From: Larinioides sclopetarius
Taxonomy: Eukaryota
NCBI GenBank assembly: GCA_964023285.1
Contig: CAXIEN010000102.1
Coordinates: forward strand, 2,935,528-2,999,527
Direction of reading: 5' to 3'
Length of the DNA stretch: 64,000 nucleotides
Below the pieces are notes generated by a model that was not told where the DNA came from, did no database searches, and saw only the letters and a program-made list of their open reading frames with translations. Positions 1,050 through 63,083 of this stretch are shown here, piece after piece (the first letter of the stretch is position 1; each line of letters begins with the position of its first letter). The position numbers were made by a program, and so were the translations under genes.

Positions 1050-1081
<32 letters not shown>

Positions 1082-3087: not shown

Positions 3088-3104
3088 CACACACACACAC
3101 ACAT
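3088..3104. repeat. (CA)n microsatellite.
   Basis: acacacacacacacac. Confidence 0.85.
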
Positions 3105-12390: not shown

Positions 12391-12540
12391 TTATGAATCT
12401 TCACTATCCTTTCGTTGTCTCTTAGAGGGTGGCATCAGCGCACTGCCAAGAAAACCTTGTGCAGTGTTGAACAGGTTAATTGGGGTATTGCCATCTGTGA
12501 TTAAAGCAGATTGAATTCCAAGGCCTTGGAGGAGTTTAAC
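12391..12540 (-). CDS. MVP: MVP terminal coding exon ([49 protein letters not shown]). TAA stop at 12393..12391.
   Basis: Acceptor ttgtttcag. Aligns to [34 protein letters not shown]. The 3'UTR continues toward lower coordinates. A candidate AATAAA (plus-strand tttatt) lies near 11810. Confidence 0.85.
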
Positions 12541-13059
12541 CTGAAACAAACATACTTAATTCAGAAATATATGTTACAGCCATAAATTTAATTCCTAATA
12601 AAGCAAAATATTATTATAAAACTTAAAAATAAAACCTACTTCCAAATTTAATTTAAATTGGAGCAGAAATACAATAAGGACCATTTCTTAAATTTTATTA
12701 CATACAAGAAATTACACCATAACATTTAGAAGGTTTTAAAAATTGAACAAACTATTATTTCCCTCTCTAATCACTTTACTTTTTTTTTACACAATCGCTT
12801 TCAAGTAAACTTCATTTAAATTTTTCAAAATTTGAATGAAATTTAGTATTAAATTATTTAAATGGTAAGCAATCTTTTTTTGATTTCAAGATCACATAAA
12901 TTGTTCACATTATACAAGATTCTCAGATTTTGATATAGCAAGAAAAGAGAAACCAAAGGATCATCCTAACCTTTTAACACCTAGCATCCCCATTTGAGAA
13001 GATATACATTTTCTGTTTCATGGATAAATCAAATACATATCACTGTTGTTTTTTTTTGC

Positions 13060-13270
13060 AATGCAGCAACTAGAAAAATCTCACATTCTTTCTAACAGTG
13101 GACTATGGGGAGGATCGTCAACCCCGAATTTTGTGAAAGAATGGAGGACTTCTTTCCTAAAGGGACATCGTGGATGGCTTATTTTTACAAAAAGGGCGGA
13201 TCTATTTAAGTGAAAGGGCAGGCAGGGCGGATTCCATGAAGTCAATAGATTTTCTGAAACAGTTTTCAAA
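13060..13270. repeat. Dispersed GC-richer repeat, copy 1 (motifs TTCTTTCTAACAGTG..GGGCAGGCAGGGCGG).
   Basis: Collinear similarity to 50130..50365. Confidence 0.6.
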
Positions 13271-13299
13271 GGGCATAAATCAATAGTCAGCTAATGTCT

Positions 13300-14520
13300 G
13301 ACCATCACAATAATATCGGCTGCCAAAATGTCTAGCATATGGGGTTCTTTCAACAACAGGTCGGAAGTCAAGGTCAAGAAGATCCATTTTGAAAAGGAGG
13401 AGTTCAACGGAAGGCGGAGTTTTATTTCATGCTTGGTGCCAATTTAACGTGTAAATAAATGTAGCTCATCATTTGTCTTCTTGGTTTTGCTGTAGTTGCA
13501 CGTTTTTCTAATTTCAATTATCTAATATCTTCTATTTATTTATCTAACCACTTAAAATAATTCGTCAACTATTTTCTGATCAACATTATTTACATTTCGT
13601 TATTATTTTTTGCTTTTTAAAACTTGAAATCTTTCAAAATGTCCTTTCAGTTTAAGAAAGGAGAATCATTTAAAGTCGCAAACACGTAAAATGATGTATA
13701 ATGTTGAGGAAGCTAAAGTGAAATCTTTGAAAGTTTCTCTTCCGCAAGCCATGAGAATAGCTTCTGAAGCAACAGGAGTCTTAGAATTAACTATAAGAAA
13801 AATTAGAAATCAAGTGTCAGTATTGGATGAAAGAGAAGTGTTGAGTATTCCTGGGAAGAACCGTTAAAGGCTGTCATACTGAAATTGATGATTTCGACAT
13901 ATGTGTGATACGACAAATAACTTAAGACTTTTACATCCGACAAAAGAAAGTTCCACTGTAAGGAAAATTACTCACTGTGCTGGCAGGTAAGTTGAACTTT
14001 CAATGGAAAAGAGAAACATTCAGAAAAGTAATGCACACAATGAATTTTTGATGGAAGAAGCGAGTTAATAAAAAAAATGTGCACATCGCAAGACCCAGTA
14101 TAGTGTTTTGAAGGAGTAATTACCTACGAAAAATTAGGCAATACAGGTGAAATGGATACCAGATTGTATTTGGGTTGATTGCAACTTGACATTTAAAAAT
14201 GCTAAACAAACAATTTCAGAAGCTGAAATAAATGTTAATTCAAAGAATCAACTCATTGTTGAACATGCTGGGTTGTCCATGGGATTTATTCTTGGGACTC
14301 AATTGGTTTACAAAGCGTCATCGAAAAGCGGGGGATCACCATGGTCAAATGAATTCTGAGAAATGGGTATTGGAAAACCTTATACCAAATTCACAGCCTC
14401 AACGTGTTGTATGTATGGATAATGCTTAGTATCCCATGAAGGTTGCAAATCCAACACCTACAAAGCACAGTTCAAAGAAACAGATGATTGATTGGCTGAC
14501 AATTAATAATGTAACTTGTA
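13300..14520 (+). pseudogene. Degenerate transposase-like remnant in the last MVP intron (frame-disrupted ORFs 14147..14359 and 14232..14429).
   Basis: Fragments such as DDFDICVIRQ, WIPDCIWVDCNLTF and QRVVCMDNA, followed in the next frame by KKQMIDWL, resemble a DDE transposase C-terminal region. No intact ORF, and the family was not determined. Confidence 0.3.
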
Positions 14521-14793
14521 ACATGAAAAATGCGGGAAGCAGAACTGTATTCTCTATTAGACAACAGCTGTCCTAAAGAAATCAAATATACAAGATTGAC
14601 AATCTAATAAAAGAGCATGAGCATAAATTTAGAAGAATTTTTATAGCTCATATCACTAAAAAATAATATCAATTTTAAGACTTAACATTTCATTATCTTT
14701 ATTATGAGTCTTTTGTATCTTTCAAGTTCTAATAAATAATACTCCATATCAAATATCACACACATATAGTAGATCCACAAGAATGAAACATAC

Positions 14794-14982
14794 CTGGAAA
14801 TCTTGTCCAGCAGAAGCAACAGACTGAATTGTTTCTCTACCAAGACTTTCCACAAGATTCTTAAATTTGCTAACTTCAATATCAGCAACTTGTTTCAGTT
14901 TCTCAACCTCCAAAGCATTTTGTTCTTTAAGGTAGTGCAACTCCTCCTCTCTAGCTTGGCGAAGACGTTCCAACTCAGTTTC
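14794..14982 (-). CDS. MVP: MVP coding exon 13 (ETELERLRQAREEELHYLKEQNALEVEKLKQVADIEVSKFKNLVESLGRETIQSVASAGQDFQ).
   Basis: Acceptor tatcttag, donor GTATGT. Aligns to [64 protein letters not shown]. Confidence 0.85.
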
Positions 14983-16045
14983 CTAAGATATATATATCAT
15001 AAATGTAAGAAATCAAAAGATAATTACACATTTATGAAAAAAATATGGGGAGGGGAAGAAAGCACAAAAGAAGTCATATAAAAGACTTCACACAGAAGTC
15101 ATGACATCAAAGAAGAGATTACAATGATTATTGTAGCAACAGATAAAAATAAAACAATAGGTGAGAAAAAATAAACATTGCCTTCCAAACCTTTTATTGG
15201 AATTAAATCAACTCATCTTTCACATAAACATTTAAATATTTTTTTAAAATTTGAAGACATTCAAACAAAAACTTTTGAAAATATCTGAAAGCAAGTAAAT
15301 TTTTATTTATTGCTTTAAAAAAATGAATACAAACATTTAAAAAATTATTCATGAACCTTTTTTTATTTAAATACGAAATGAAGTTTTTTTTTAGTTTTAT
15401 GCTAAATTAAATAATTTGAAAGCATTTTTCAGGGTCAGAATTTAACCAAATACATTTTAGCACCTATCACATTTATAGCCTATAAGAATCTTCATATCTA
15501 AAAAAAATGTTAGATTAAGACGATAGTATCTAGAATGAAAAATATATTTAACATCTAAAATAGACATTAGGGAGAGGAAAGGGGAGGTGGGAAGCCATCA
15601 AACAACATTTAAAATAGAAAAATGAAAAGAATACATTCATCAGAGAAAAGAACCAAATTCAAAATTTTTGAAAAAATAAAAGCTAAAAAAATTATTCCAG
15701 GATCTTGTGCAAGAATCAGGACAGTTATTAAAAAAATGTGCTTTTCTCCCATATTTTTAAAACCAAAGTTGGATTTAATTTTTGAACAAGAATATTTAGA
15801 CATTTGGTTATTTTGACCCGATCGGGAAAAAAAGAAGAGTGGGTGAGAATGTGTGCTAGAAAAAGTTATAAAAGACTAAAAGCATTTTTTGAAAAAAAAG
15901 CAATTAATCTTTTTTAATCTATATTTTCATGAATATAAAAATTTTAAACATATTTTTTCCCCAACTCCTTATAAATAAATAACAAATAATAATAAAAATG
16001 AAGTTTGGAATATGAAGTTATAAAGAAATAAAAGAGAAAACATAC

Positions 16046-16289
16046 AGCTTCAATCTTCATAGCTTCTGCCTTTGATCTTGCTTGCTCAACAGCAGCTTCA
16101 GCTTCAATTCTTTGAGCCTCTGCTCGACTCAAAGCTTCTGCTTTGGCTTGACCACAGTTCTCTATTGACATGCTGCTCACTTTTAGCTCAAGTAGACTCT
16201 TTCTTTCTTTCTCAGCTTCAACTTCATCAGATATTTTCTGACGCTCCAGTCGCCCACGAGCTTCCTGCTCCCTTCGCTCAGCCTCATGC
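16046..16289 (-). CDS. MVP: MVP coding exon 12 ((R)[81 protein letters not shown]). Cap-helix coiled coil.
   Basis: Acceptor tgtacag, donor GTATGT. Aligns to [81 protein letters not shown]. Confidence 0.85.
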
Positions 16290-16330
16290 CTGTACACATA
16301 AATAAAATTTATCGTTTTTTGATCACTAAA

Positions 16331-17060
16331 TACAGTACGACGCCGGTAATCCGGATTTTAGGTTATTGACTAATCGCTAAATACGTTAATTTACATAAAA
16401 AATTCATTTTTATTACTATTTAAAAGCATATATTAATTTTACCATATAATTTTATTCTGTTTGAATTTCAATGAAAAATCTGGAATTTTGTATGGAACAT
16501 ACATAATGTTGTTATCAGATAAACACAGTCTATAAATATTTTTCAGCTGCCTCATGGAATGAATTATTTTAAGTGATACGAAGACTAAAATTCCATAGAA
16601 GGGTGATTGCAGCTTCGCGCCTAGCATCGGCGATAACGACACCACGAACCTCCACGCGTAAAGAGCTAATCAACGCTGTGCTTTAAAGCGACAGTCGCTT
16701 AAAGGGGACAAAAAAAAAATGTTCTCGGTAATTTTGGAATTTAAAATTAGAAAATAAGGTCACATTTTAGAGAAATTATGGTTTGAGTAAATATTTTAAG
16801 TGAAATCACTTGCAAGTCAAGTAATATGAAACAAATGAAAAGAGCCGAAACAAAAGCATAAGGTGTATTGGAAAGCACTTCTTCAAGTTAGATTTCTGGC
16901 GCAAACGTCTGTGATTCGTTTCTAGCAGCATTTACACCACCGTCAATTTGAGGTCGAACAAAGTATAGCAGTCGAAAAAAATTCTTTTAGACGAAACAAT
17001 TTTTTATTAAAATGGCCGAAATGGTTTCTTTGGAGTTCGGATTATCAGCATTGTACCGTA
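16331..17060. mobile_element. ~730-bp non-autonomous element with ~28-bp terminal inverted repeats (TACAGTACGACGCCGGTAATCCGG ... CGGATTATCAGCATTGTACCGTA), in the intron between MVP exons 11 and 12.
   Basis: Its two ends are mutual reverse complements. A diverged copy at 19523..20270 lies in the opposite orientation. Confidence 0.65.
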
Positions 17061-17781
17061 AATTGTAATAGATGTTATTTAGAAAAGTAATAAAGAAAGT
17101 AAATTTCTTTATAACAGACAGATTGTAGACTATTATGCTCCTTAAGGCTAGTAGGCACACCCAAGAGATTTAGAACAGGCTACATGTACATGATAGTACA
17201 TCACTACTGCAGTTTAACGTTTGTGGGAAAAAAATTATCATACTAACTGTGTAGATAGATATGCAATAAAACATGAAGTTCAACCAAATATTAATGCAAT
17301 TATTTTTCCAAAGGTTGTTAAAATATCTACAACAAGGAATATAGTATATTTAGTAGCTATATCTTATTATTTAAAAATTTATGGAGATTTTTGTTGGATA
17401 ACATAGATAATTGAGGCAGACATTTCGATCTGATATCCCTATCCTTGTTACCAGAAATTGGCTTTAAGAACTATTTGTTTCAAAAAGTGTGTACAAATGG
17501 GTGTAAAAATAATATTAAGTATCACATGCAACAAACAACTAATACAAGACTGCAAAGTAGCTTCAATGCAGCTTGATTCCAAAAGATGAGTATGCTGTAA
17601 ATTAGCGTAAATATTACTGTATCTGTTCCAAAAAGTGTTGCCATGTAATCAATAGCACAAGGAAAATTTACTTCCTAAATAAGCTTCATTGGATAATAAA
17701 TAAAAGAAACTTAATGTCTATTACTGAACAAGCACTGCTAAGAAATCAAAATAAAGATTAAAAAAGAATAACATCACTTAC

Positions 17782-17993
17782 CTGGCAGTAGCTTCCTGAC
17801 TTGAGGTGGTGATTTCTATGGCAAGCTGAACAGATTTTTGCAATGAATCTCTAGTACGTTGATCAACTGGCTCAACACTCTGAATATCAACACTAGTAAT
17901 GTTTAAGTTATTTTGTGGGAAATTGAAGGTTTTCCTTACTTTTCCTTTTTCATCTAAACCAAAAACTGCTGTCCGGATAATTTTTGCAGAGTT
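17782..17993 (-). CDS. MVP: MVP coding exon 11 ([70 protein letters not shown]+AG).
   Basis: Acceptor ctgtccctttcag, donor GTAAGT. Aligns to [80 protein letters not shown]. Confidence 0.85.
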
Positions 17994-18817
17994 CTGAAAG
18001 GGACAGGAGGAGTTGCATTAAGTAACATGTTGCCAAAAAGTAAGTTTCTCAGCAGTCATTAAGGAGACAAACTTAATGACCTGGAAAGATTTATTGAAAC
18101 ACAATAACAGTATTCTTTCAGCTATTTCTCAACAAAAGAAACATTGGAAATTAAGTGCACATCAAACAATGAAACTAATTTCTGTATAGTAATGTCAAAG
18201 AAATCTGCCACCAGTATGTCATTGGGGAAATGTTGAATTCTTTTCAGGTGTTGGAAATGATAATAGTCACTGGGAAAAAAATTGGGAAAACAGACGGGGT
18301 GATCAAATACCTTCCACCTTTCTTAAAACCACTATAGAAATATGCACAGCAATAGTTGACAGCAAATACTGCCATGGAGAAACACTCGGGTGATTCTTAT
18401 ATATATAGAGGTAGCTGAAAGACTGCTATATCTGTTTCTATGTAATTATAATTTGAGCCTCTTTAACACTTCCCCAGAAAATATTCATTTTCAGAATAAA
18501 CAATATTACAAAAAACATTGCGTTTTCTCACTAGTACTAATACCAGAAATCATACTATTATATATAAAAAAGTAAAAATCCAAAGAAAAGTATTCAGTAG
18601 ACATTCTTTAAAACTGCAAGTTGAGATGAACCAAAATTCATTTTACAAAGAATGTATAAATAAATAATAAAAAGAAAACTAATATAATTTATTTGCTACA
18701 CTGACAAATAAAATGAAAGAAAAGAAGCGACAGATATCAAAGACTAAGTAGCTTATAGGATCAAATCCTGCCCATTAAATAAAAAAAATGTGAATTAATA
18801 AATCAAAATTTAATACA

Positions 18818-18962
18818 TGTACTAGCTATGTGGCCCAGCGTTGCACAGGCAATCTCAAATAACACATAATTATTAGATAGTAAGAAATGAGGAATGTCAC
18901 ATGCACAGCATTCTTTCCTAAATTTTAATGTAACTTCTCTTCATAACAGTACATTATAATTG
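18818..18962. repeat. Short dispersed SINE/MITE-like repeat, copy 1 (TGTACTAGCTATGTGGCCCAGCGTTGCACAGGCAATCT...).
   Basis: Similar to 22749..22925. Confidence 0.55.
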
Positions 18963-19522
18963 GGAAAAAATAGAAAATTGTTTCTGCACAGCAGATGACA
19001 TCAAATGAGTTTTATAGCAAGAACTTTATGAATTAAAACACCCTAAGTCAAAAAAGAGAGTGTGTGAAACTATTTACACAAACTTGCTCCCTTTTAATAA
19101 ATAACAAAATGCAAAAACGTAGGATTTAAGAATGAAGTAAAAAAGTATCAACTCTGTACACGATAGATAGCAGCATTAAATAATCATCCAGTTTGATGTT
19201 TTTAACTAATATCCAGTGATAGCAGCACATGCACAGAAAAATATAGGATTCTTGAATAAAAAATATAGGACATTAAAATTTTTAAAAAATCCATCTTAAA
19301 TTTACATAACAGCTTCTTGCAGCAAATGTGAAAAAAAAATTAACTTCATATATATAGCAACAATTAGAACAGAAGAGAATAAATTTTTTAATAAATTGTA
19401 TGCATAAAAATAATAAACATTGAGACACAAAAATGCACCAAGTTCATTTATAAAATAAAAAGAATGATGACTTGCTTCTATTTATGATCAAATATAAAAA
19501 TGAATATTATATAAATATATAT

Positions 19523-20270
19523 ACTGTACGATGCTGATAATCCGAACTCCAAAAAAAAACTGGACATTTTCGCCTGTTAATTTCACCTAAAAACTTTTCT
19601 ACCTCATGTTGGCAGAAGGAATGAAGTTGGTGTCAGAAATCTAACATTGAAAAGCGTTTTCAAAAATTCCATCGTGTTTAGGTTTCGGTTGTTTTCTTTG
19701 CTTCTTTACAAAATAAATACTTTTTACAAGTAATATTACTTAACTTGCAAATGATTTTATTTTAGTCAAAAATCAGGATTTCTGTAAAATATGATCTTAT
19801 TTTTTAATTCCCAAACTGTCAATAACTATTTTTCTTGAACACCCTTCAAGCAGTGGCCCCCTAAAATCACACCAATGCTTGGCCCTTTTCAATTGGAGAT
19901 TTTTTATGTCGCTATCGGCGCTGCTAGAGAAATTGCACCCAGCCCTTCATAACACTTGAAATAATTTATTCCAAGAGGCAGCTGAAAAATATTTACAGAC
20001 TCTATGATTATCTGTTGGCAACATTGTGCAAGTTCAATACTCAAAAAAAATACATGCTCCAATTTCTGTCGGCAATCAGAAATTATGTATGCTTTACTTC
20101 TTTCTCTACTTCTTCCGTAATAAAATTATATGGAAAAATAATATTTTAAAACTGTATTATAATATTTTTAATATAAATTATCATATTTATTAACAGCTTA
20201 ATGCATTTTCTTAAAAAATTTAGTAAATAACCAAAAATCTGGAAAATCCGTTAATCCTGAATTGTCACGG
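19523..20270. mobile_element. Second, inverted copy of the ~750-bp TIR element, in the intron between MVP exons 10 and 11.
   Basis: Reverse-complement similarity (~70-75%) to 16331..17060 along its length. Shared blocks include GCAGCTGAAAAATATTTA.AGACT, GAAATCTAAC.TGAA and ATGCTGATAATCCGAACTCC. Confidence 0.6.
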
Positions 20271-22199
20271 TCCTAATGGTTCTGCACACACAATATTTTC
20301 ATTAATTTATCATTAAAAGAAGATATATTCTGAGTTATGCCATAATTCTTATAAGAAGGGAGTGAATGTTCAGACATATATCTTGTATGAAAGCTTCAAA
20401 TCAAAAAAGAAAGAGAAATTTTTCCACTTTTAGAACTCGAGCAGAAAAGGGTAAATCATGATGTCAAAAAATGCAGAGTTATTAATTTTGAGCACACGAT
20501 TCTCTCATTATGAATTCTCTTACTAACAAGTAAATTAAAAATGGACAATTAAAAATCTTTAGCACAAGAAATAAAACATGCAGCTAAAGAAAAGGAATTA
20601 TAAATTAGAATTTAAAGTAAAATTAAATGGGGTTATTAAATATATGTATGTTTATAAATCTGAAAAGGATCACTTTCTTTTTAAAAACAATGAAAAAAAT
20701 GATAATGTGAAGGCAATGAATTAATATGAAGTAGGCCATGAAAAGAATACTTAAAAGCATAATACTTATATGTATAAAGCTAGAAAAATTTAATTGTAAA
20801 ATTAATCAAATTTAATTCCTTAAAATTGAAAAAAAAAACCCATAGTATTAAAATAGAAGTTTTTGAAAAGAAAGTCAATGTTGGCTGTTATGTTAATATA
20901 ATTATAATTAAAACAATTTAAATTAATTTTTAAAACTAAATATGTTGATATTACCACCTTATAAAATATGTAAGAATTTTTACAATTATAACGCTAAGAC
21001 AATGAATTCTTTGAGTTTCTTCTTTTCAGAATTCAGTTTTTGAATTCTTTTCAGTTTCTTATTTCCTGTTGCAATTAATGCCTGTGCCGCTGGAAATGAC
21101 TTTCTTATCAAAGATGTTTGGTTCCCTCTTCTATAAGTTGGTAGGCAAAATCAACATTATCTTATAAAGAAAGCAATTCATTTTGGATAGTCTTTTGCAC
21201 ATATTTTAGTACCTTATTTACATTGTCGAGCTTGTTTTCCTTTGACTCACTTCCTAGCCATTCAGCTTTGTGTTCTGAGTGTGCTTCTCTATAAAAATGT
21301 ATAGCCCCCCTTTGTAATAACAATCTCAATAATATTTTCTATCCTAATACTGTCGTTAATCAGTCTCAAACCAACGATGGTGGTCTGATCCATTATTCTT
21401 GACCTGTCACTCATCATCCTTTTGTTGACAGAAAATCCCCTTTCTAGTGCTTGTCCATGAGAAAGATAATACCTCTTTTTCCTTATGTTTAAGTCATTTA
21501 ACATTTCTCAAATATGCATCAATTTTTTTCCCACTGCTATACATATTCTTCAAGTTGTTTTTCAACTCTCCACTTCTCTTTTATAACCTCATCAGAAATA
21601 TTAATTGTGATGGAGTTAACAAAGATTGTTAGTGAGAATTCAAAAGAGCAAGCAGAAGCAAAATATGCGGCAACTCTGAAGAGAAAAGAAAGGAGGAATC
21701 ATGCTTCACCTACTGTATCATACTTGAGCAGGGAAAAAAGTGTGCGCTATATATTATCAAAGATTGAATGGAAAGGGAAAATAAAATATATGACAAATAA
21801 CTCTTTTTTTTTAATTATAGGACATTTAAAAAAAATGTTCTAAAATATTGGAATTATAGGACAGCTGAATATCTTTTACCTAATTATAATTTTGGAATGC
21901 TTCAGTTAAATGGTATTTCTCTAAGTACTCCAAACCAGCGTTAATTAGAACCCATATTTTTTTTCACATACCAGAATCGAGATGATATATGCATGATGCA
22001 CTGCCTACCAAAAGTATCAGAGTCAAATCTCACACAATACAAAATATTTGGTAATAAATCTACCTCAGTGACTTAATTTTGATTGTTCTTTCATATCAAA
22101 TGAGAGGTTCAAACTTTCCATTGGTGAAAATGTGTAGAAATTGGCATCATACTATGTCGCGGCGCAATGAATGGTCTGAATGATTCTGATACTTTTTCC

Positions 22200-25181: not shown

Positions 25182-25323
25182 CTTATGAAAATCATCAAAA
25201 TTTGTTCCAGCTACAGTACCACGAATTCTGGAAGCTATTGCTTTACAGAGATCTCCAATGAAATCCGGAACACTGAATAATTTAGCAGATGCCTCAGGGC
25301 TCTTGTCACCAACATCGAAGAAC
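25182..25323 (-). CDS. MVP: MVP coding exon 10 ((W)[47 protein letters not shown]).
   Basis: Acceptor tatctaaag. Frame continuity with exon 11 (DDFHK|NSAKIIR, as in human DDFHKNSARIIR) requires the exon to end after AAG at 25182, followed by GCAGGT, i.e. a GC donor. The nearest GT donor, 4 nt downstream, breaks the frame. Confidence 0.65.
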
Positions 25324-26975: not shown

Positions 26976-27173
26976 CAATTATAAGACAATTGCAGGGAAA
27001 GTCGAGCATGGTCAGCAGTCTCAACTGTGATGATATCTGTACAAAAATCAGGCCCCAGAAGTAAACACAGGGTTTTAATAACATTGGGTCTCTTTGGTTT
27101 GTCACCAGATAAGCTGAGTTGAGTAAATTGTTCGTCAGGAGCTAACATTACAAGATCTGGTCCAAATATAACC
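26976..27173 (-). CDS. MVP: MVP coding exon 9 ((R)[65 protein letters not shown]+TG).
   Basis: Acceptor tttcaatag, donor GTATGC. Aligns to [67 protein letters not shown]. Confidence 0.85.
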
Positions 27174-27759: not shown

Positions 27760-28025
27760 CTAGATTTCTTTTGCTTATAATCATATATCTGCACAGCAGC
27801 ATTGTGCGGAACTCTCAGAGTAATTGCTTTAGCACCATCTTCTTCTGTCCTAGTTTTCTGCTTTACTTGTGCAGAAGCCACACCTCTAGCCATTCTCCAA
27901 GAACCTCGATCACTTAAAGGATCATGGCCCTGATTTAAAAGCTCTTCTACTGCTTGTGGGAGTTCTTTAACCCACAATTCTTCATCTTGATTAAGCATAT
28001 ATGTAGTACCAGATATAAGCCGGAT
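27760..28025 (-). CDS. MVP: MVP coding exon 8 ([41 protein letters not shown]...[21 protein letters not shown]+AG).
   Basis: Acceptor ttttgatag, donor GTAAAT. Aligns to [41 protein letters not shown]...[18 protein letters not shown]. Confidence 0.85.
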
Positions 28026-28525: not shown

Positions 28526-28675
28526 GTGACCAGATTTAATATTTCTCACATATATCCCTTCATTATCATCTAAAGCGATAGCATATCGTTTGGTAACTAT
28601 TTCCACTTCAGTAGGTGGAATATATTCAGTAGGTCCTTTGATCATCCAGCGATCTCCAGGATTACGAGTAACAGG
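28526..28675 (-). CDS. MVP: MVP coding exon 7 ([50 protein letters not shown]).
   Basis: Acceptor tctctag, donor GTAAGT. Aligns to [49 protein letters not shown]. Confidence 0.85.
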
Positions 28676-32991: not shown

Positions 32992-33123
32992 AGGAGTTTC
33001 ACTAGTATCTTGGTATTGCTCTCTTGCTTTTAGAATGAGGCCTTCATTTTCACTTAAAACATATATATCCTGGATTCCTGCCTCTAGCTTTTCACCAGGT
33101 TGTAAGAAAAATGACTTCTCACC
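32992..33123 (-). CDS. MVP: MVP coding exon 6 ([44 protein letters not shown]).
   Basis: Acceptor ttaattag, perfect donor GTAAGT. Aligns to [45 protein letters not shown]. Confidence 0.85.
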
Positions 33124-38228: not shown

Positions 38229-38465
38229 CTTGATTAACTTCTTCCTTCCAAGCTGAGGTTTACCATCGTCTCCCACAGGGTCCAGAATAACACAATATTG
38301 ACGATTTGAAAGCGTGGTAATTTTTATGATTCCTAAAACATCTTCATAAACACCTGGAATGTAAGTTTCTGTATCATTTAGGGTTATTAACCATTCTTCT
38401 CCATTTTTTCTGGTTTTACTAAATTCGTCTACAAATGTTTTCTTTGCTTTGACATGAACAGCTTC
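38229..38465 (-). CDS. MVP: MVP coding exon 5 ([79 protein letters not shown]).
   Basis: Acceptor tctctttatag, donor GTTTGT. 79 codons, phase 0 at both ends. Aligns to ..[60 protein letters not shown]. Confidence 0.85.
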
Positions 38466-39226: not shown

Positions 39227-39453
39227 TTTTTCAGTTAAAACATGAGCATTGACAACATCAACTATTTCTTCATAAGCTCCAGGTAAGTAAGCTCCACTTT
39301 TCTTGACTATCCACTCTTCTCCAGTTACTCTCTCTTTTCCATCTCTGTCTTTGGTTTCAGCTTTAGCCCGTAATCTGAGAGCTTGATTGAGATTAATCAC
39401 AGTAGCAAAAATAGTTTCCAAAACTTCAACTTCTTTGCGAGGGATAAATGTGG
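39227..39453 (-). CDS. MVP: MVP coding exon 4 (..[76 protein letters not shown]).
   Basis: Acceptor ttttccag, donor GTAATT. Aligns to [75 protein letters not shown]. Confidence 0.85.
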
Positions 39454-40678: not shown

Positions 40679-40799
40679 CTGGGCCTTCAAATAACCATTC
40701 ATCTCCAGCAGTTCTCTTGATATCCCCATCTTCAAAGTCTCGAATTGCAGTCAATCTTAAAGCACTATTAGCTGACACAACAGTCAATGGAGTTACTGG
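40679..40799 (-). CDS. MVP: MVP coding exon 3 ([40 protein letters not shown]+G).
   Basis: Acceptor gaatttcag, donor GTAGAA. Aligns to [37 protein letters not shown]. Confidence 0.8.
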
Positions 40800-41299
40800 C
40801 TGAAATTCAATTGGAATGATATTTTTAGAAAATGTTCTAAATAAACAGAAACCCATCATTCAAATAATTTTTATATTCAATTCCTAATTTCATATTTGAA
40901 TATGAATTCATATGCAAACTGCAATTGCATGAATGATATTTTAAACTGCACAGTTAGCATAAAATAAGACATCAGCAAACTGAAGGATAATGGTAAAAAT
41001 AAATTCTTAAATATTACTTTGTGAAAAAGAAATTTATTTGACATAAATTAACATATCTGCTACTTAATTAATACCAAAATACAGAATTCAAGGACAAACT
41101 TATGAAAAACTTATAAATGTTCCATGTGATTTGTTTAATAATAAATCTTTCTTGAACATGAATGTGTCGAGATGGTTCCTAAGAACTATTTCCATTTTCT
41201 GCGGATGATAAATCATTTTCAAATAGGAAGGGTCAAATAAAAGGGAAAGTTGAACTTTCATCAATAGGACTAATCAGGATCAAACAAACCTTCCTCCTC

Positions 41300-41597
41300 T
41301 ATTATATTCTTTCTATAATTCTGGCAACGCAATACATTGATTACTATTTCTTTTTAACTTATGGCAAAGTAACAAAAATATAAATAGAATTCTACTTTCC
41401 TTTCAACGTTGCAATAGGTAATGTTCTTGTTTAGTTGCTTAATATATCAAATCACGTATCAAGGGAAATGAATATTATTTGTTTGTAAATATGTAAATAC
41501 TTTAAAATGCGTGGAATAATAAATGTATTATTATAAGTTCCGGCATCACATTTTTCGTATCGCATCGATACGCGCCTGCCACCTCAGAAACATAACA
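41300..41597 (+). repeat. 5' LTR of the retrotransposon.
   Basis: ~98% identical to 45906..46196 (about 4 substitutions, an 8-bp and a 1-bp indel). Ends ...AACATAACA. Confidence 0.8.
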
Positions 41598-41601
41598 GTT
41601 T

Positions 41602-41612
41602 TGGCGACAAGG
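41602..41612 (+). other. Putative tRNA primer-binding site (TGGCGACAAGG), 4 nt downstream of the 5' LTR.
   Basis: Starts with TGG, complementary to a tRNA 3' CCA end, in the canonical position. The tRNA species was not identified. Confidence 0.4.
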
Positions 41613-41659
41613 TAAAGTTCTTTTTCTATCAATTTTTCATCGAATATTGTTTTGATATT

Positions 41660-42529
41660 TTGTATTTCATGATGGATGCCGAACAATTTAAAATATTGCT
41701 GCAGGCAATGAATCAAAATAAACAACAGCTGTTAGAGCGATTATTATCAAAAGATAAAACAGAATCGTTTGCGTCTAAAGAAACTTCTGTTATTAACATA
41801 GCTCATATTCCACCATTTGAAAATTTTGATCCTAAGAAAGAGAAATTTAAATATTATAAGCAACGTTTCGAAAATTACTTATTGATGAAAGATGTTTTTC
41901 AAGATAAAGATAAATGTGCACATATATTACTTAATTCTATTGGTGCATCGAATTACAACATCTTGGCGTCTTTAATTGCGCCAAAACCGCCAAACAAATT
42001 GCCGTATGATGATCTCATGAAAGTTCTAGAAAATCATTTGGCGTCAAAGCGCAGCTGTTTAGTTTCCCAGCATTACTTTTTGTCGACTTATCAAAAAGAA
42101 GATAGTTCAATTTCTGATTATGTGGCTGATTTGCAATGTTATATTGCGGATTGTGAATTTTCAGTTACTTGTGAATGTAGCAAAAATGTATCGGTTGCTG
42201 ATATTTTTCTAAGAGCGCAATTTATTCGAGGTATCAAAGACGGTTGGATTAAAGAACAACTCTTACAATCTGAATTAACTGATTTCAATGCACTTGTTGA
42301 TAAAGCTATTGCGCTTGAAACTTCAAAAATAGATGGTCATGAATTATCAAAATCGACTACAACCACCATCGATGGTATAAACAAAGTTTCTAAGCGTAGT
42401 CGCAATCGCCAATCTAATGATATAAAAACCTCTTTCAGAAATCGAAATACAAATCAGAGAGACTTCGCAACAAATTACCGAAGGAAAAGTAAGAAACTCT
42501 CTCGATTTCGAGAAACTTGGAATAAATAA
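41660..42529 (+). CDS. Retrotransposon gag ORF (289 aa), intact, ending at TAA.
   Basis: First long ORF after the 5' LTR and primer-binding site. The following pol frame is +1 relative to gag and is open across the gag stop. Confidence 0.7.
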   Translation: MYFMMDAEQFKILLQAMNQNKQQLLERLLSKDKTESFASKETSVINIAHIPPFENFDPKKEKFKYYKQRFENYLLMKDVFQDKDKCAHILLNSIGASNYNILASLIAPKPPNKLPYDDLMKVLENHLASKRSCLVSQHYFLSTYQKEDSSISDYVADLQCYIADCEFSVTCECSKNVSVADIFLRAQFIRGIKDGWIKEQLLQSELTDFNALVDKAIALETSKIDGHELSKSTTTTIDGINKVSKRSRNRQSNDIKTSFRNRNTNQRDFATNYRRKSKKLSRFRETWNK

Positions 42530-42530
42530 T

Positions 42531-43127
42531 TTGTGCCTGTGTTGCGGACACAATTCTCATTTATCAAGAGACTGTCAATCAAATCCCAACAACTTGAAAT
42601 GTAAAGTTTGCAAATCTACAGATTATGTACAAAAGGTTTGCATCAAAACATTATTAAAAGCTCATAGATCAAACAGTCTTACACAAGAAACAAATTATTT
42701 GAAAACTTATCAAGACATTAGTGTAAATACGATCATTGATAACCGTAATTCAGGATCTTCAGTAGATTCAACGAAATATTTTATTTATGTCAAAATAGAA
42801 AATTGTTTTCAAAAGTTTGAGGTTGACACAGGTGCAGCTTATACGCTCATACCGAATGATCAGTTTCAAAAATTAGGTATAAAAAGACAGCTTGAACCAA
42901 TGAGAATCGCATTTCGATCCTATACTGAAAATGTATTTGTACCACTAGGAAAAGTGCAAGTTAAAGTGGAACACAAGGGTCAAATATCAAATGAAGATTT
43001 GTATGTAGTGCCTGATGGATTTGAACCTTTATTAGGAAGAATCTGGATTAGACATTTAAAAATCAATCTGAATGAAATAGATCAAAACATTGAGGGCAAA
43101 ATTAAATTGGAAGTATTTTCGATCTAA
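42531..43127 (+). pseudogene. pol part 1: CCHC zinc knuckle and aspartic protease, ending at an in-frame TAA (43125..43127). It is in the same frame as the RT ORF.
   Basis: CLCCGHNSHLSRDC knuckle. FEVDTGAAYTLIP protease active site. LLGRIWI. Confidence 0.75.
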
Positions 43128-43184
43128 AACATTTCTGATATTGAAAGGCATTTTCCACAGGTATTCGAACAAAAAGTAGGTTGT

Positions 43185-43990
43185 GTGCCTAATTTTACTA
43201 TCAATTTAAAACTACGTAACGGAGCTAAACCTAGTTACACTCCATCTCGGAATGTACCCTATGCTTTAAGGGAACAAGTTAACAAGGAACTGGATTCTCT
43301 CAAAGCAGCTGGAATTATTTCCAAGTCAGTTACTAGTGATTGGGGATCACCTTTAGTTGTGATTCCAAAAGGAGACGGAACTCTTCGACTTTGCGTAGAT
43401 TACAAAGTTGGAGTTAATGATCTACTTATGAACGTCAACTATCCAATAAAGAAAATCGATGAAGTTTTGAACAATCTTAGAGATTCAAAGTATTTCTGCA
43501 AGCTGGATTTATTTAAGGCATATCTTAATTTACAGACCGATGAAGAGAGTAGTATTATCCAAACGATTTCAACACATCGAGGAACTTATAAAATGAATAG
43601 GCTGAGTTTCGGCATTAAAATGGCTCCGGCTGAATTTAATAGATTAATTGATCAAATTCTAAATGGTTTGCCAAACACTATAGCTTATTTCGATGATATT
43701 GTGGTTCATGGTGAAACTAAAAATCAGTGTGCTAAGAACCTCTTTGCTTGTCTCGAAAGACTACGCGAATATGATTTGCATTTGAACATCAAGAAATGCA
43801 CATTTTTTCAAACAAAGATTGAATATCTAGGTCATGTAATTGAAAACAACAAAATATCAAGATCACCCTCAAAAGTGGAAGCTATTGTACAATTGCCCCA
43901 ACCAAGAAATGTCAAAGAACTTCGACATTTTTTAGGTATGGTTGCTTACTACTCGAGATTCATACCAGATGTTTCTACGATTACCTTTAT
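43185..43990 (+). pseudogene. pol part 2: reverse transcriptase.
   Basis: LRLCVDYKVGVN, YFCKLDLFKAYLNLQ, IAYFDDIVVHG, LGHVIE. A frameshift (~1 bp) near 43985 separates it from the RNase H frame. Confidence 0.8.
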
Positions 43991-44794
43991 CCTCTACGTA
44001 AACTCCTTCGTAAAAATCAAAGGTGTTGTTGGAATCGAGAATGCGAACGGACTTTTCTTCAGCTCAAGGAAGAAATATCCAGTGACAGAGTCCTAGCACC
44101 TTTTAATCCAGAATTACCTGTTTCGTTAGCAACAGATGCAAGCACAGTAGGAGTTTCAGCTGTATTATCACACACAATAAACTATGTCGAAAAGCCAATT
44201 GCTTTCGCTTTCCGTTCATTGACAGAGGTGGAAAGAAATTACTCTCAACTTGATCGAGAAGCCTTAGCTATTATTTTTGGAGTCTCCCATTTCATCGATT
44301 ATATTTATGGTCGACATTTTGTTCTCGTCACCGATAACCAGCCCTTATCCAGAATACTACATCCTAAAACTGGCCTTCCAAAAATGACATCCGCTCGACT
44401 TTTGAGATATGCTTCTTTTCTAGCAGGATTTGATTACACAATCAAATTTAAAAGGGGCCTAGAAAACCAAAATGTCGATTGCTTATCAAGAGCTCCTTTC
44501 CTCAAAAATTGCACATCTGCAGATACATCTATTAATGAAGAAGTCCATCAAATATGTGCATCGACAGAAATTTTGACTGCAGATGCCATTATACAGGAAA
44601 TAGAAAAAGACCCGGAATTGGCAAAAATTAAGCAAGAACTGTTATCAAATTCAATTGACAGTGATTACTTTTTACACTGTGGCATTTTGTTTAAAAACAA
44701 CCGCATCGTGATACCCCAAACACTTCAGCCAATGGTTCTGAAAGAATTACATTCAACCCATATTGGAATAACTAAAATGAAACAGTTAGCATGA
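43991..44794 (+). pseudogene. pol part 3: RT-RNase H connection, RNase H and the start of the integrase zinc finger, ending at an in-frame TGA (44792..44794).
   Basis: PLRKLLRKNQRCCWNRECERTFLQLKEEISSDRVLAPFNPELPVSLATDASTVGVSAVLSH..PIAFAFRSLTEVERNYSQLDREALAIIFG, VTDNQPL, LHSTHIG. Confidence 0.8.
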
Positions 44795-44836
44795 CCCTAT
44801 TGTATATGGAAGAATATCGACAAAGATATAGAAACT

Positions 44837-45680
44837 TTGGTTAAATCTTGTAAAGATTGCTCTTCAGTCAAACACAGTCCTGCCAAGGCACCCATTCATC
44901 ACTGGGATTTACCAATTAACAACTGGGATAGAATTCATATCGATTATGCAGGAACCTTTCAGGGTTTTCACTACCTAATTGTGGTGGACGCAAAATCTCG
45001 TTGGGTAGAAATTAAAGTGTTGCAACGATCACCTGATTCTGAGATTACCATGAAATTACTTGATGACATTTTTTGCCACTCATGGATATCCTTTATTTAT
45101 GGTCTCTGATAATGCATCAATTTTCACTAGTGAGGAATTCAAGCATTTCTGTCGTATGAATGGAATTAGACAAAAATTTATAGCACCTGGCCATCCAGCA
45201 ACAAACGGACTAGCTGAGCGGAACGTCCAGACCTTGAAAGATAGATTAAAACTTATGTCTTCAGAAAACGTTCCAATCAATTTAAAAGTTCAAAGAATCC
45301 TCTTTCAATATCGAGCTACTCCGTTAGCAAATGGCAAGTCACCAGCAGAAATGTATTTAAACCACAAGATTCGCATCAGATTGGATGCAATGTTTCCATT
45401 CTGCGAACGGAAATCTGAACAACTGATCAAACCTAGTACACGTATAATTAAAGTGGGGGAGAGAGTAAGAACAAAGTTTTTCATCAACAATAAACCTAAT
45501 TGGAAACTTGGAGTTGTTACTCAAAAGCTTGGTCATCTGCATTACATCGTAAAGTTAGATGATGGAAGAGAAATAAAGCGTCACATCAATCAAATGCAAA
45601 AAATCAGGAGTCCAAAACGAAGAAGTTATATCAAATGCCACAACTTCAGATTTGGAACCTTTCCTGAATCAAGATTGTGA
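44837..45680 (+). pseudogene. pol part 4: integrase (CX2C of the HHCC finger, DDE catalytic core).
   Basis: CKDCSSVKH, WDRIHIDYAGTF..YLIVVDAKSRW, GYPLFMVSDNASIFTSEEF, GHPATNGLAERNVQTLKDRL. A single-base frameshift in the T6 run at 45069..45074 (ORFs 44837..45109 and 45060..45680), and another near the C-terminus (~45650..45770). Confidence 0.8.
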
Positions 45681-45905
45681 TCCTGGTCATTACCAATTCA
45701 TCAAGCCTTCTACTACTCAAAGGAACAGATTAACTACAGATCGAGATTTAGGAGATTCTGATCAACAGCAGAGGTCCTCACCACCTATCCGGAGGGGTCT
45801 ACAAGAGTTAGACGTCCACCAGCATATCTGCAAGATTATGATCGATCCTAAAATAACTTTTTTTCTTTTCCTTTTTAGCATCCAAATAATCAAGTGGGGG
45901 AGAAT

Positions 45906-46196
45906 TATTATATTCTTTCTTTAATTCTGGCAACGCAATACATTGATTACTATTTCTTTTTAACTTATGGCAAAGTAACAAAAATATAAATAGAATTCTA
46001 CTTTCCTTTCAACGTTGCAATAGGTAATGTTCTTGTTTAGTTGCTTAATATATCAAATCACGTATCAAGGGAAATGAATATTATTTGTTTGTAAATACTT
46101 TAAAATGCGTGGAATAATAAATGTATTAATATAAGTTCCGGCATCACATTTTTTCGTATCGCATCGATACTCGCCTGCCACCTCAGAAACACAACA
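45906..46196 (+). repeat. 3' LTR of the retrotransposon.
   Basis: Direct repeat of 41300..41597, preceded by the polypurine tract at 45892..45904. Confidence 0.8.
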
Positions 46197-46928
46197 CAGT
46201 GTGTACACCTTCTCTCACTCCACAGAGATTCTATTTTTAGAAAAAGACAAGTATGTACTTGTATATCTGATCTATTAAGTCTCTAAACGAAGGTTTTTTT
46301 AAGGCATACTTTTGCCACTTGAAGCATTATTACATGCTGGAGTAAGCAGTTTAATTTATTTTGTTTCAAATATTTTTTATACAGAAGTGCGAAGTTTTAC
46401 AAAGATGATACCTTTATCAATGATTTTTTGAGTTTTTCCTCAAATCTCAGCAAATTTGTCAAATTCGCCCAGCAATATTCTTAAACTTTTAAAAAAACCG
46501 TTGTGTTTTCTTTTTCATATGACCTTTAATAAACTTTTTATTTAAACATTTTTATAAAGCTGAATTTGTTAAACGAGATAAATTACTTTATTTAAGAATT
46601 ACTCTTGGATTAGTCCATTTTTAAACTTTAAATTTAATGAACATTCTTGGAAAAAGTTTTGGTATAATTTAGGTTAGTCCTAGAAAGCATGATTAATTTC
46701 TGCCACAGGTTGATCACATTGCCAATTGCTAAATTTGCATACATCATGCACTAGTCTATCAAGAAAGAATAGTAATTTATATAATAATGCAAAAAGAGCT
46801 GTTTAACTCTATTTAAAGAAATCTATTGATCAATACACATTTAACCTTTCACTTCCTATAACATAGGATTACATAATTTTAATCATAATAAATGCAAATC
46901 TTCAAAAATATATAACTACTTTACATAC

Positions 46929-47124
46929 TGTATCAATAATTTCTCCAGGATATAATGGAAATGGATCCTGCTCTAATCTCACTTCTAAATCTGCATGCTT
47001 CAATTTGATCTGACCAACTTTATCATACATCAGAGCATTTTCTGCATTTCTAACGACAGGATTTCGAATAGTACAGTAATGACATGGAGGAATAATTATC
47101 ATATCTTCTGGCCCAATCAGAACC
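46929..47124 (-). CDS. MVP: MVP coding exon 2 ((R)[65 protein letters not shown]).
   Basis: Acceptor ttttag, donor GTATGT. Phase is consistent with exon 1 (CG+G=Arg). Aligns to human [64 protein letters not shown]. Confidence 0.85.
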
Positions 47125-47326
47125 CTAAAATTATTTTCAGGAAATTGAAACCAAAAAATGTACCACTATTGTGAATAATAAGCGAAACTAACAATTAAAT
47201 TTATCAGAAAAAGAAATAAATATAAGATATTATGTATGCCATTATTATATAAAATAAATCCAAACATAAGACTAAGCAATGATTTACAGGTATTCAGAAA
47301 AAAATTTAAACAAAAAACAAAAATAC

Positions 47327-47481
47327 CGTTCATTTTCTTGGCGAATATAAGTCTTGGGTCCAATTTCAACTCGAGTAATGTTTGTTGTTTGGTCCAAAAC
47401 ATGCATATACTTGTAAGGAGCAATGCGAAAAATGCTCCGCTCTCCCTTGGAGTTGTTTTCCGATTCTTTATGAGGAGCCAT
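47327..47481 (-). CDS. MVP: MVP coding exon 1. ATG at 47481..47479, encoding [51 protein letters not shown] plus 2 nt.
   Basis: Matches the MVP N-terminus ([34 protein letters not shown]). Donor is GTATTT at 47326. A ttttttgcag sits 2 nt upstream of the ATG, suggesting a spliced 5'UTR. Confidence 0.75.
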
Positions 47482-50129
47482 ACCTGCAAAAAAGATTTGA
47501 CAAAACTTAGTTAACAAACTTCAAACAGAAACAGAAAAATTAGAATGAATAAATTTCTACATGTAAATTCTTTTTTACACATAGAAACTATTCTTTAAAA
47601 CACAATGAATACTTTATTCTTCAGATTAATACTAAATCAATATATGCTAAAAAAAAGAAGAAACTTCTAATGATGAACAATATTTTTAATTTTATTTCTC
47701 TTCAAATATTCTTTTCAGTCCTATAGAAATAAGTTGAGTGGGATAAGAAGTTTCATTTGGAAGATGGATATTGGTTTCATGGGGAACGTCTATATAGGAG
47801 AAAAAAAAAACAGAAAGGGACACATACTAAATTATTTGGATCCCAGCCAGGCTAGAAGCTATCGGTAGATATTTTTAAATTTTACTAAAAGTGTATTTGT
47901 AATTTTAATTAGGAGGCAAGTGTAAAATGCTCACTGGTATCCTGTGAATTCTGTTTTCTCTTCTGTGAAGATCTTTCAGGAGACATAATGCTTCTGAAAA
48001 ATAAAAATAAATAATAAAAAAAAAATTGTACACCATAGAATGTGCGTCCCCCCCTTATCTATTTATCTTACCAGACAGAGCTTTTGATTGAAGAGTTTAA
48101 GGCATTTTTTAGTTGGTAATCAGCCATATAAATCTAGTCCAAGACTAATAAACAGTAAAGCCGAGTAACTCTTCACACAAATCAGGGTAAATTCAAACAA
48201 CTAGACTTAGACAATCAGAGAGGCGTCCATATTTTAAAGTTACAAAAAGGCTATTTTGTGATGAAACTCCAAATTATGAATCATGTTCAAACAGCAAGAA
48301 TAACATCCAAGGCAATATAACAATTTTCTATCTTGCCACATCAGCAGATGAAATTAGAATTTTTAGATCCAAAATTCTTATTTTCTTCTATATACGTAAA
48401 ACCGAAGTACTGGAATCGCAAACATTCCGATTTCTGGTTTTCAATAGACTAACATATTTTGGGAGGTCTTGAACAGTATTCACTATTTTTGAAAAATGCT
48501 TGCCTGAATGTGACAAATTTTGTAATCACAGTTGAGCAAAAACTAAGAAAACATAATTTCTTTTAAAATTTTTACTTGGTTGCTCTCCAACACAAACTGG
48601 TGCTGATTAGACTTAAGTGCATATTGCTTAACAGGTTAATTTTATTTCATTTTATATAAAATTAATAACTAACAAAATTTCCTCTTATATAAAATTTTAC
48701 AGGTGCTCCTATTAAATTTTCTGTAAAATTCAGCGATTACACCGAAGCAAAATATAATCAAAAGAATTTTATAAGAAAATTTATATTTAATCACACCCCA
48801 ACATAAACAGACGTTGCTTAGATTGTGATGCATAGACATCAACAGATGGCACTGCTATTCAATTTTATTCACGAAATTTCGTGACTGTTCTAGAGAAAAT
48901 GCAAAATGAAGAAATTTCATATTTAATCACATTCTATTATAAATTGTTGAGTAGATTTTGATGTTTATCACACAAAATTCAATTTTGTTGCAAATTTTGT
49001 GACAACACTAGATTTGAACTTAAAAAGGCACCAAGACTCAAAGGGCATTAAGTTTCATAAAAATACCATTCCCCGAAATAATTCCTTAAAATACCCTTCC
49101 TTGAAAAAGGAATCTTACGTTTTACAGAAATAGATCAGAAAAATTACCGTTCATTTTTTGGAAATCGACCGGAAAAAGCATCGCAAGTTTTACAGAAAAC
49201 ACACTGTACGTTTTAGGCGAATAAATCGGAAAAATTTCGAACAACGTATATCTTTTAAAAAATAAACATAGAATAGATGCGAAATAATGATAAAACATGA
49301 TACTTAACTGCTTTTAATCTCAGAAGAAACATCGTTTTAAAATATATCTTAAATAAGATAGATGGAAATAGATTGGAAACTTTGGAAAATCACCAAGTAA
49401 ATATATAACATGTTTTTAAAAAATGGAGTACAATACAACGAATTGTCAGACGATTTCTACATAATGTTTGGAAAGTCTGAAACATTTATCTTTCCTAAGA
49501 AGCATATTTTTAATTCCTTGCATCCCAGGCTGTTTTTTTTTATTCCTTTTCATGAATTCGTTTTCTTCTGTCACTAGAAGGCATTTTTTTCTATGGTATT
49601 TCAGTAAGGCTTGGAAATACAGTAGGAATATTCGTTAAGATTGGAATAATTTTGCCGAAAGCCGATCAAGATATGTGGCAAGGTGTGCTTCAAGTAAAGA
49701 CAATAGGAGGCTTGAAATTACGTTGCTTGACTTGGCAATTTATAACCGGAAAAATTGAAATTTGAAGATTTCTTGTATTTTCCTACTGATGAGAAACGAG
49801 GTTTCCCTCCCATCTCCATACGAAAATTATTTTATTTTCTTAAAAAAATATATTACATTAATTAAAAAAAAGAGTCGACACAAGTTTTCTAAATCAGTAA
49901 AAATAGCGGAAAAATAGGAATCCTGGGTAAAAAGTCTTTTGAAAACCTCGGAAGGGACAAATGGTCCCCCCTCTCCATAGATCCCTGCCTGGGACCATGC
50001 TAATTGCGAATACAACTTCTGTACCCTGATTCACAGAAGTAATTATTTGCCTTAGCTGGACCTCCATGATAAGATTCTTTTATCTCCAAGGTTCCCCTTC
50101 TATACGGCCCCTATTTAGTTTTATGGCTG

Positions 50130-63065: not shown

Positions 63066-63083
63066 GTGTGCCGAATTCGGCAC
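63066..63083. repeat. Perfect 18-bp palindrome TGTGCCGAATTCGGCACA.
   Basis: Self-complementary around a central EcoRI-like AATT. A related half-site TTTTCGGCACATTC lies ~60 bp downstream. Confidence 0.6.

What the first reader, a model, noticed from the sequence alone, without database searches (positions are those of the whole stretch)
12391..47483. Complete major vault protein gene resolved from raw sequence: 14 coding exons, 872 aa
Every exon junction is contiguous with the vertebrate MVP alignment, and the summed exon length is a multiple of three. MVP builds the vault particle and has a patchy phylogenetic distribution. It is established to be absent from Drosophila, C. elegans, budding yeast and plants. 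Its presence here therefore says something about the source lineage of this AT-rich genome. The source is not an insect such as Drosophila, and I cannot identify it from sequence alone. The predicted protein has a 14-residue N-terminal extension ([14 protein letters not shown]) and a short basic C-terminal tail ([13 protein letters not shown]) in place of the longer vertebrate tail.
Basis: partly seen in the sequence, partly recalled or inferred. Interest (0 to 1): 0.5.

Follow-up and report, generated by a model that had tools for sequence, protein, structure and literature searches.

The report
Spider major vault protein gene

Summary
Observation confirmed. It carries all the MVP Pfam domains and aligns end to end with solved human and rat MVP (E=0, about 61% identity).

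The source is the spider Larinioides sclopetarius. Four public protein models (CAL1277463-66) are identical to it outside a few alternative junctions. The Argiope bruennichi orthologue is 95% identical, and its RefSeq isoform X1 is also 872 aa with the same exon boundaries. dN/dS is 0.054.

Corrections:
- A 15th coding exon (47993-47935, ATG at 47986) adds 18 residues (MSPERSSQKRKQNSQDTS), giving 890 aa. All four public Larinioides models and Argiope X2 use it.
- A likely non-coding first exon lies near 55367-55252.
- Intron 10 has a GC donor, not GT.
- The N-terminal peptide and the basic-acidic C-tail are the normal invertebrate state, not peculiarities.
- MVP in arachnids is already published.

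Verdict: an ordinary, already known gene, of low interest.

The parts
55252..55367 (-). Putative non-coding first exon (5'UTR). The 5' end is not defined. The donor is TTTAA|gtaatg after 55252.
   Evidence: Nucleotides 34-150 of the 5'UTR of araneid transcript L002 map here, and to the orthologous block of A. bruennichi. There is an in-frame stop and no ATG. This part is inferred; it is not confirmed with RNA from this species.
47935..47993 (-). Alternative leader exon with an ATG at 47986. It encodes MSPERSSQKRKQNSQDT plus the first base of a Ser codon (phase 1). Acceptor ttttcag|AAGCATT, donor ACCA|gtgagc.
   Evidence: tblastn hit to the A. bruennichi X2 leader and direct reading of the sequence. 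The 15-exon splice gives 890 aa with no internal stop. The leader is identical to the N-terminus of CAL1277463-66.
47327..47483 (-). Coding exon 1 of the 872-aa model. ATG at 47481, acceptor cag|GT.
46929..47124 (-). Coding exon 2
40679..40799 (-). Coding exon 3
39227..39453 (-). Coding exon 4
38229..38465 (-). Coding exon 5
32992..33123 (-). Coding exon 6
28526..28675 (-). Coding exon 7
27760..28025 (-). Coding exon 8
26976..27173 (-). Coding exon 9
25182..25323 (-). Coding exon 10, followed by a GC donor (gc at 25181-25180), so intron 10 is GC-AG.
   Evidence: The orthologous donor in A. bruennichi is gtaaat. The junction HK|NS is present in all the public isoforms and in transcript L002.
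17782..17993 (-). Coding exon 11
16046..16289 (-). Coding exon 12 (cap-helix coiled coil)
14794..14982 (-). Coding exon 13
12391..12540 (-). Coding exon 14, with the TAA stop at 12393-12391.
12122..12390 (-). 3'UTR, minimum extent. Poly(A)-signal-like hexamers lie at 12325 (ATTAAA) and 11814 (AATAAA). The true end was not determined.
   Evidence: A conserved block shared with A. bruennichi runs on to 12122. Transcript L002 extends to 12302.

Best explanation
This is the single-copy, functional major vault protein (MVP) gene of the orb-weaving spider Larinioides sclopetarius. It is transcribed from the minus strand and spans at least about 55.37 kb to about 12.1 kb of the window.

Shown:
- 14 constitutive coding exons encode an 872-aa MVP with the full family architecture: N-terminal vault repeat domains, the shoulder domain, the long cap-helix and the cap-ring segment.
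- An upstream 52-nt coding stretch in a cassette-like exon supplies an alternative in-frame start. It adds 18 residues, giving 890 aa.

Inferred:
- Skipping or including that exon, downstream of a non-coding first exon near 55.3 kb, gives the two N-terminal isoforms.
- From established knowledge of rat and human vault structures, 78 copies would assemble into the barrel-shaped vault (39 per half). The N-termini would sit at the waist facing the lumen and the C-termini at the caps. On that reading the 18-residue leader is a luminal appendage and the basic-acidic tail sits at the cap.

The gene is about 1.6 times longer than its Argiope orthologue because its introns are larger, including a roughly 4.9-kb LTR retrotransposon in intron 2.
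For: - Gene model: 872 aa from 14 exons.
- Family: Pfam Vault, Vault_2, Vault_3, Vault_4 and MVP_shoulder are all above their cut-offs.
- Solved structures: colinear alignment of residues 14-856 to human MVP 4-851 at E=0, about 61% identity.
- Best database hits are spider MVPs, with A. bruennichi at 95%.
- Species: L. sclopetarius CAL1277463-66 match 882/883, 887/890, 873/874 and 888/890 aligned residues. The differences lie only at alternative junctions.
- Orthologous boundaries: A. bruennichi exons cut at the orthologous positions reproduce RefSeq X1 (872 aa) and X2 (890 aa) exactly.
- Transcript support: an araneid RNA-seq transcript shows the same 14 junctions and skips the leader exon.
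- Selection: dN/dS is 0.054, with dS 0.46.
- Composition: the window is about 30% GC, matching the published 30.5% for this genome (PMC11323941).
Against: - I had no RNA from this species, so the relative use of the leader exon, the transcription start and the poly(A) site are unverified.
- I could not fetch the L. sclopetarius contig for a DNA-level comparison. The species assignment therefore rests on protein identity.
- Vault assembly in spiders has not been shown here.
Confidence: 0.97

Rival explanations
1. The main product is the 890-aa isoform that starts in the upstream leader exon. On this reading the 872-aa model is a minor form, or is not made in this species.
For: All four public L. 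sclopetarius models start MSPERSSQKRKQNSQDTS. The exon, its acceptor and its gtgagc donor are conserved in A. bruennichi. If the exon is included, its ATG is the first in frame.
Against: A. bruennichi RefSeq also annotates the 872-aa X1. The araneid transcript L002 skips the exon. Gene models from Araneus, Caerostris, Trichonephila and Oedothorax join the 5' exon directly to the MAP... exon. The leader is weakly constrained, with dN/dS 0.57 over 18 codons. The internal ATG has the stronger Kozak context (GGTATGG), read directly from the sequence.
Confidence: 0.45
2. The locus is a decaying or non-functional MVP copy (a pseudogene).
For: There is a retrotransposon insertion in intron 2 and one non-GT donor.
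Against: The ORF is uninterrupted and all acceptors are AG. GC donors are a known minor class of functional donor. dN/dS is 0.054. The product is identical to annotated models built with transcript evidence. The retrotransposon is wholly intronic and on the opposite strand.
Confidence: 0.01
3. The sequence comes from a contaminant or symbiont, such as a protist or prey, and not from the spider genome.
For: Such contaminant MVP hits have been reported in insect assemblies (PMC11219742).
Against: The nearest relatives are spiders, in taxonomic order: Argiope 95%, Caerostris 87%, Trichonephila 86%, Limulus 70%. Exon order, intron positions and several non-coding blocks are colinear with the A. 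bruennichi chromosome. GC content and intron sizes are spider-like.
Confidence: 0.01

Closest known systems
Larinioides sclopetarius MVP protein models CAL1277463.1-CAL1277466.1 (UniRef A0AAV2A0G6, A0AAV2A0B8, A0AAV2A091, A0AAV2A0A8)
   Same: They are identical in every residue outside the alternative junctions, including the leader MSPERSSQKRKQNSQDTS and the tail [13 protein letters not shown]. This is the same gene.
   Different: None of the four equals the orthology-supported splice form. One uses a +4/+4 alternative GT-AG pair at exons 2/3 (PV to VL). The other three need non-canonical 'introns': GT-AC, GT-GT, a 36-nt GT-AC and a 21-nt AA-AA. These look like long-read alignment or annotation artefacts. 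No 872-aa form is annotated for this species.
Argiope bruennichi major vault protein-like isoforms X1 (XP_055949871.1, 872 aa) and X2 (XP_055949872.1, 890 aa)
   Same: The exon count, every exon length, the phases and both start codons are the same. Protein identity is 95% and CDS identity 90%.
   Different: The Argiope gene is 21.7 kb from ATG to stop, against 35.6 kb here. Its intron 10 donor is a canonical GT, and it has no LTR element in intron 2.
Human and rat MVP (solved vault structures, e.g. PDB 4V60, 4HL8, 7PKZ, 11DR)
   Same: All domains are colinear, from the first repeat to the cap-ring (residues 14-856 against 4-851), at about 61% identity.
   Different: The spider protein has 10 (or 28) extra N-terminal residues. 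There is a 7-residue insertion in the loop near residues 465-492 and a roughly 10-residue deletion near 620. The C-tail is 16 residues and basic-acidic, in place of the 42-residue Pro/Gln-rich mammalian tail.

Membership tests
Major vault protein (MVP) family | Multiple N-terminal vault repeat domains (Pfam PF01505, PF17794, PF17795, PF17796) | tested here: met
   Vault 7.4e-67 (4 stretches), Vault_2 6.3e-35 (2 stretches), Vault_3 1.7e-33, Vault_4 1.1e-21. All are above the curated cut-offs.
Major vault protein (MVP) family | MVP shoulder domain (PF11978) after the repeats | tested here: met
   Residues 535-652 match profile positions 1-118 of 118, E=6.4e-53.
Major vault protein (MVP) family | Long C-terminal cap-helix and cap-ring segment, colinear with solved MVP | tested here: met
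   A single alignment covers 14-856 against human MVP 4-851. A separate match of 757-856 to the C-terminal chain 9z5n_B scores 8.9e-28.
Major vault protein (MVP) family | Orthology to annotated animal MVP genes: best hits, conserved gene structure and purifying selection | tested here: met
   2648 homologues were found, and the named ones among the 120 listed are called MVP. The exon boundaries are identical to the A. bruennichi RefSeq models. dN/dS is 0.054.
Major vault protein (MVP) family | Self-assembly into the 78-subunit vault particle | not testable with these tools
   This needs expression followed by EM, or purification from spider tissue. It is inferred only from about 61% identity to the proteins of solved vaults.
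Vault ribonucleoprotein (complete particle) | Partner components: vault RNA, TEP1 and vPARP/PARP4 | not tested
   Rfam at gathering threshold found nothing in the window. The partners are not expected to be linked to MVP, and the rest of the genome was not available.

The most novel reading that the evidence does not exclude
The conserved alternative leader exon may give araneid spiders two MVP isoforms. The longer one would carry an 18-residue basic, Ser-rich peptide (KRK/RKKR cluster). Given the known vault geometry, that would place up to 78 extra basic tails at the luminal waist. This could tune cargo or RNA binding or half-vault association, or act as a nuclear-localisation signal on unassembled MVP. 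Nothing here tests this. The leader is only weakly constrained (dN/dS 0.57 on 18 codons).
Probability: 0.08. Interest if true: 0.3.

Novelty: already known. Interest (0 to 1): 0.07.

Why it matters
It matters little. The gene is already in the public annotation of this species and of its relatives, and MVP in arachnids has been described in the literature (PMC11219742).

The useful by-products are curatorial:
- a clean canonical splice form (872 or 890 aa) that none of the four public L. sclopetarius isoform models reproduces exactly;
- the identification of the window's source species;
- a documented GT-to-GC donor change in intron 10 relative to Argiope.

Tried and rejected
- Fetching the L. 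sclopetarius contig through the look-up of encoding contigs with P0126 and P0123: not on record. No DNA-level confirmation of the species was therefore possible.
- Rfam at gathering threshold and a tRNA scan of the whole window: nothing.
- ORF lists for the flanks 1-12390 and 47990-64000: only short, low-complexity ORFs. Pfam on the longest of them found nothing. No second gene was identified.
- Ten intronic ORFs that, from memory, looked like remnants of DNA-transposon transposases (13691-14429 on the + strand, 21162-21504 on the - strand): no significant Pfam match. I make no claim about them.
- A target-site duplication for the LTR element: none found at the boundaries I chose.
- A GT donor alternative for intron 10: no frame-compatible GT/AG pair gives the conserved ...FHK|NSAK... 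junction.
- Pseudogene and contaminant readings: rejected (see the rival explanations).
- Structure prediction: not run. About 61% identity to solved vault structures over 842 residues made it unnecessary.
Full report
**Observation.** The window is uniformly AT-rich, at about 30% GC. A tblastn guide search placed 14 colinear blocks of MVP similarity on the minus strand between about 47.5 kb and 12.4 kb. The guide was a human MVP sequence recalled from memory. It was later seen to agree with the PDB chain printed.

I fixed every boundary from the sequence. The 14 exons are 47481-47327, 47124-46929, 40799-40679, 39453-39227, 38465-38229, 33123-32992, 28675-28526, 28025-27760, 27173-26976, 25323-25182, 17993-17782, 16289-16046, 14982-14794 and 12540-12391. 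They sum to 2619 nt and translate without a stop into 872 residues, beginning [14 protein letters not shown] and ending [13 protein letters not shown]. All acceptors are AG. Twelve donors are GT. The intron 10 donor is GC (AAG|gcaggt), and no frame-compatible GT alternative exists.

**Identity.** Pfam finds Vault, Vault_2, Vault_3, Vault_4 and MVP_shoulder, all far above their cut-offs. The protein aligns as one block, residues 14-856, to residues 4-851 of human MVP from solved vault structures (E=0, 1155 bits). Identity is about 61%.

A search of 5.8 billion proteins returns 2648 homologues. Spiders come first: Argiope bruennichi 95%, Caerostris darwini 87%, Trichonephila clavata 86%, Oedothorax 82%, Uloborus 81% and Parasteatoda 78%. 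Then come horseshoe crabs and scorpions at about 70%, and then molluscs, echinoderms and others.

**Source species.** The 90% cluster of the top hit contains four Larinioides sclopetarius models, CAL1277463-66. Aligned to the window product, they are identical at 882/883, 887/890, 873/874 and 888/890 positions. Every difference lies at an alternative junction. The window is therefore from L. sclopetarius, the bridge spider (Araneidae). Its published genome is 2.27 Gb at 30.5% GC and was annotated with MAKER plus Iso-Seq (PMC11323941). I could not retrieve the contig itself.

All four Larinioides models, and A. bruennichi isoform X2, begin 18 residues upstream of MAPHK. That leader is encoded in the window at 47986-47935, in an exon spanning 47993-47935. 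The acceptor is ttttcag|AAGCATT and the donor ACCA|gtgagc. The exon is phase 1, so its last A joins the GT at 47483 to make a Ser codon. Adding it gives an 890-aa ORF.

In the A. bruennichi locus (L001), exons cut at the orthologous boundaries reproduce RefSeq X1 (872 aa) and X2 (890 aa) exactly.

A 2903-nt transcript assembled from RNA-seq of a related araneid (Logan SRR1745807_9601, L002) maps to all 14 exons with the same junctions and skips the leader exon. Nucleotides 34-150 of its 5'UTR map to window 55367-55259 and to the orthologous A. bruennichi block. In the window this block ends at a donor TTTAA|gtaatg (55252). It has an in-frame stop and no ATG, so it is a non-coding first exon.

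The gene therefore spans at least about 55.37 to about 12.1 kb, not 47483-12391, and has two N-terminal isoforms. Which one dominates in this species cannot be decided without its RNA data.

**Function and constraint.** Against A. bruennichi, the 872 shared codons give dS 0.46, dN 0.025 and dN/dS 0.054, which indicates strong purifying selection. The 18 leader codons give 0.57 on very few sites.

By established knowledge of the rat and human vault structures, MVP alone builds the 78-mer shell. The N-termini lie at the luminal waist and the C-termini at the caps. That this spider protein does the same is inferred from about 61% identity across all domains, and was not tested here.

**The supposed peculiarities are ordinary.**
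- Among 123 homologues, the median length of the peptide preceding the first repeat motif is 14 residues. The window has 16.
- Among 120 homologues with the PINLF motif, 65 carry a basic cluster in a short tail, usually followed by acidic or Ser residues, for example mollusc ...PSKRRRDDDEDS.
- The mammalian tail is the divergent one.

**Phylogenetic point.** However, MVP has already been reported across Ecdysozoa, including Chelicerata. Losses are reported in winged insects and mites, while 'Arachnidae (minus Acari)' retain it (PMC11219742). A spider MVP is expected.

**Side observations.**
- Intron 2 is 6129 nt, against 1671 nt in Argiope. It holds a roughly 4.9-kb LTR retrotransposon on the plus strand.
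  - The LTRs are 41300-41597 and 45906-46196, 96-99% identical.
  - The frameshifted ORFs between them carry protease, RT, RNase H and integrase domains.
- The A. bruennichi orthologue of the GC donor is gtaaat.
- Three of the four public Larinioides isoforms require non-canonical junctions: GT-AC, GT-GT, a 36-nt GT-AC and a 21-nt AA-AA. The fourth uses an alternative +4/+4 GT-AG pair. The canonical form recovered here is not among the public models.
- No Rfam family, tRNA or second protein-coding gene was found in the window.

**Verdict.** The object is an ordinary, conserved gene that is already annotated and already discussed in the literature. Interest is low and novelty is nil, apart from minor curation points.

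Noticed in passing
window 41300-46196 (+ strand), inside MVP intron 2: A roughly 4.9-kb LTR retrotransposon, antisense to MVP. The LTRs are 41300-41597 and 45906-46196, 96-99% identical. A purine tract (GGGGGAGAA) lies before the 3' LTR and a TGGCGAC... primer-binding-like site after the 5' LTR. The frameshifted ORFs carry gag-like, aspartyl protease, RVT_1, RT_RNaseH and rve domains in Ty3/gypsy or BEL-type order. No target-site duplication was found. The element accounts for most of the size difference from the 1.67-kb Argiope intron.
   Followed up: partly
window 25181-25180 (- strand), donor of MVP intron 10: A GC-AG intron (CATAAG|gcaggt). The orthologous A. bruennichi donor is a canonical gtaaat, so this is a lineage-specific GT-to-GC change that evidently still splices.
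   Followed up: yes
window exon junctions 46929/40799 and 32992/28675, and inside exon 8 (27905-27823): The four public L. sclopetarius MVP isoform models each deviate from the orthology-supported junctions. One uses an alternative GT-AG pair shifted by +4/+4. The others need non-canonical GT-AC, GT-GT or AA-AA 'introns' of 21-36 nt or shifted acceptors. These are probably long-read alignment or annotation artefacts.
   Followed up: partly
window 51957-51527 (- strand), in the intron between the putative first exon and the leader exon: A roughly 430-nt non-coding block is conserved with A. bruennichi (L001 6344-6799; 67% overall). It includes a nearly identical core of about 45 nt (TCAGAAaTGATAATTCTTAAAATGAAATAGATAAGAATT). 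It could be an enhancer, an alternative promoter or first exon, or a shared repeat. There is no Rfam hit.
   Followed up: no
window 55300-55252 (- strand) and the N-termini of P0002, P0003, P0004, P0122: The 5' exon is conserved in a protein-like way, in frame with MVP (window IVDLNCVNCPPLFQDLS). It resembles the annotated N-terminal extensions ...NVDWPPLASSSEN (Caerostris)...INWPQLLTSFG (Trichonephila)...STDWPPLPSLQA (Oedothorax) and ...SVNWPQLSQDKS (Araneus). In the window it has an upstream in-frame stop and no ATG, so it is UTR here. Whether it is coding in the other species or a conserved UTR element is open.
   Followed up: partly
window 1136-1457, 8987-9615, 58729-58995, 22599-22701/24458-24560, 37650-37755/52890-52995: There are several dispersed or tandem repeat families of about 100-170 nt. 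They include a roughly 160-nt unit at 1.1 kb and 9 kb, a 150-nt tandem duplicate at 58.7 kb, an 86%-identical pair in intron 10, and an 89%-complementary inverted pair 15 kb apart. These are presumably SINE- or MITE-like elements of a genome reported as 47.5% repeats.
   Followed up: no
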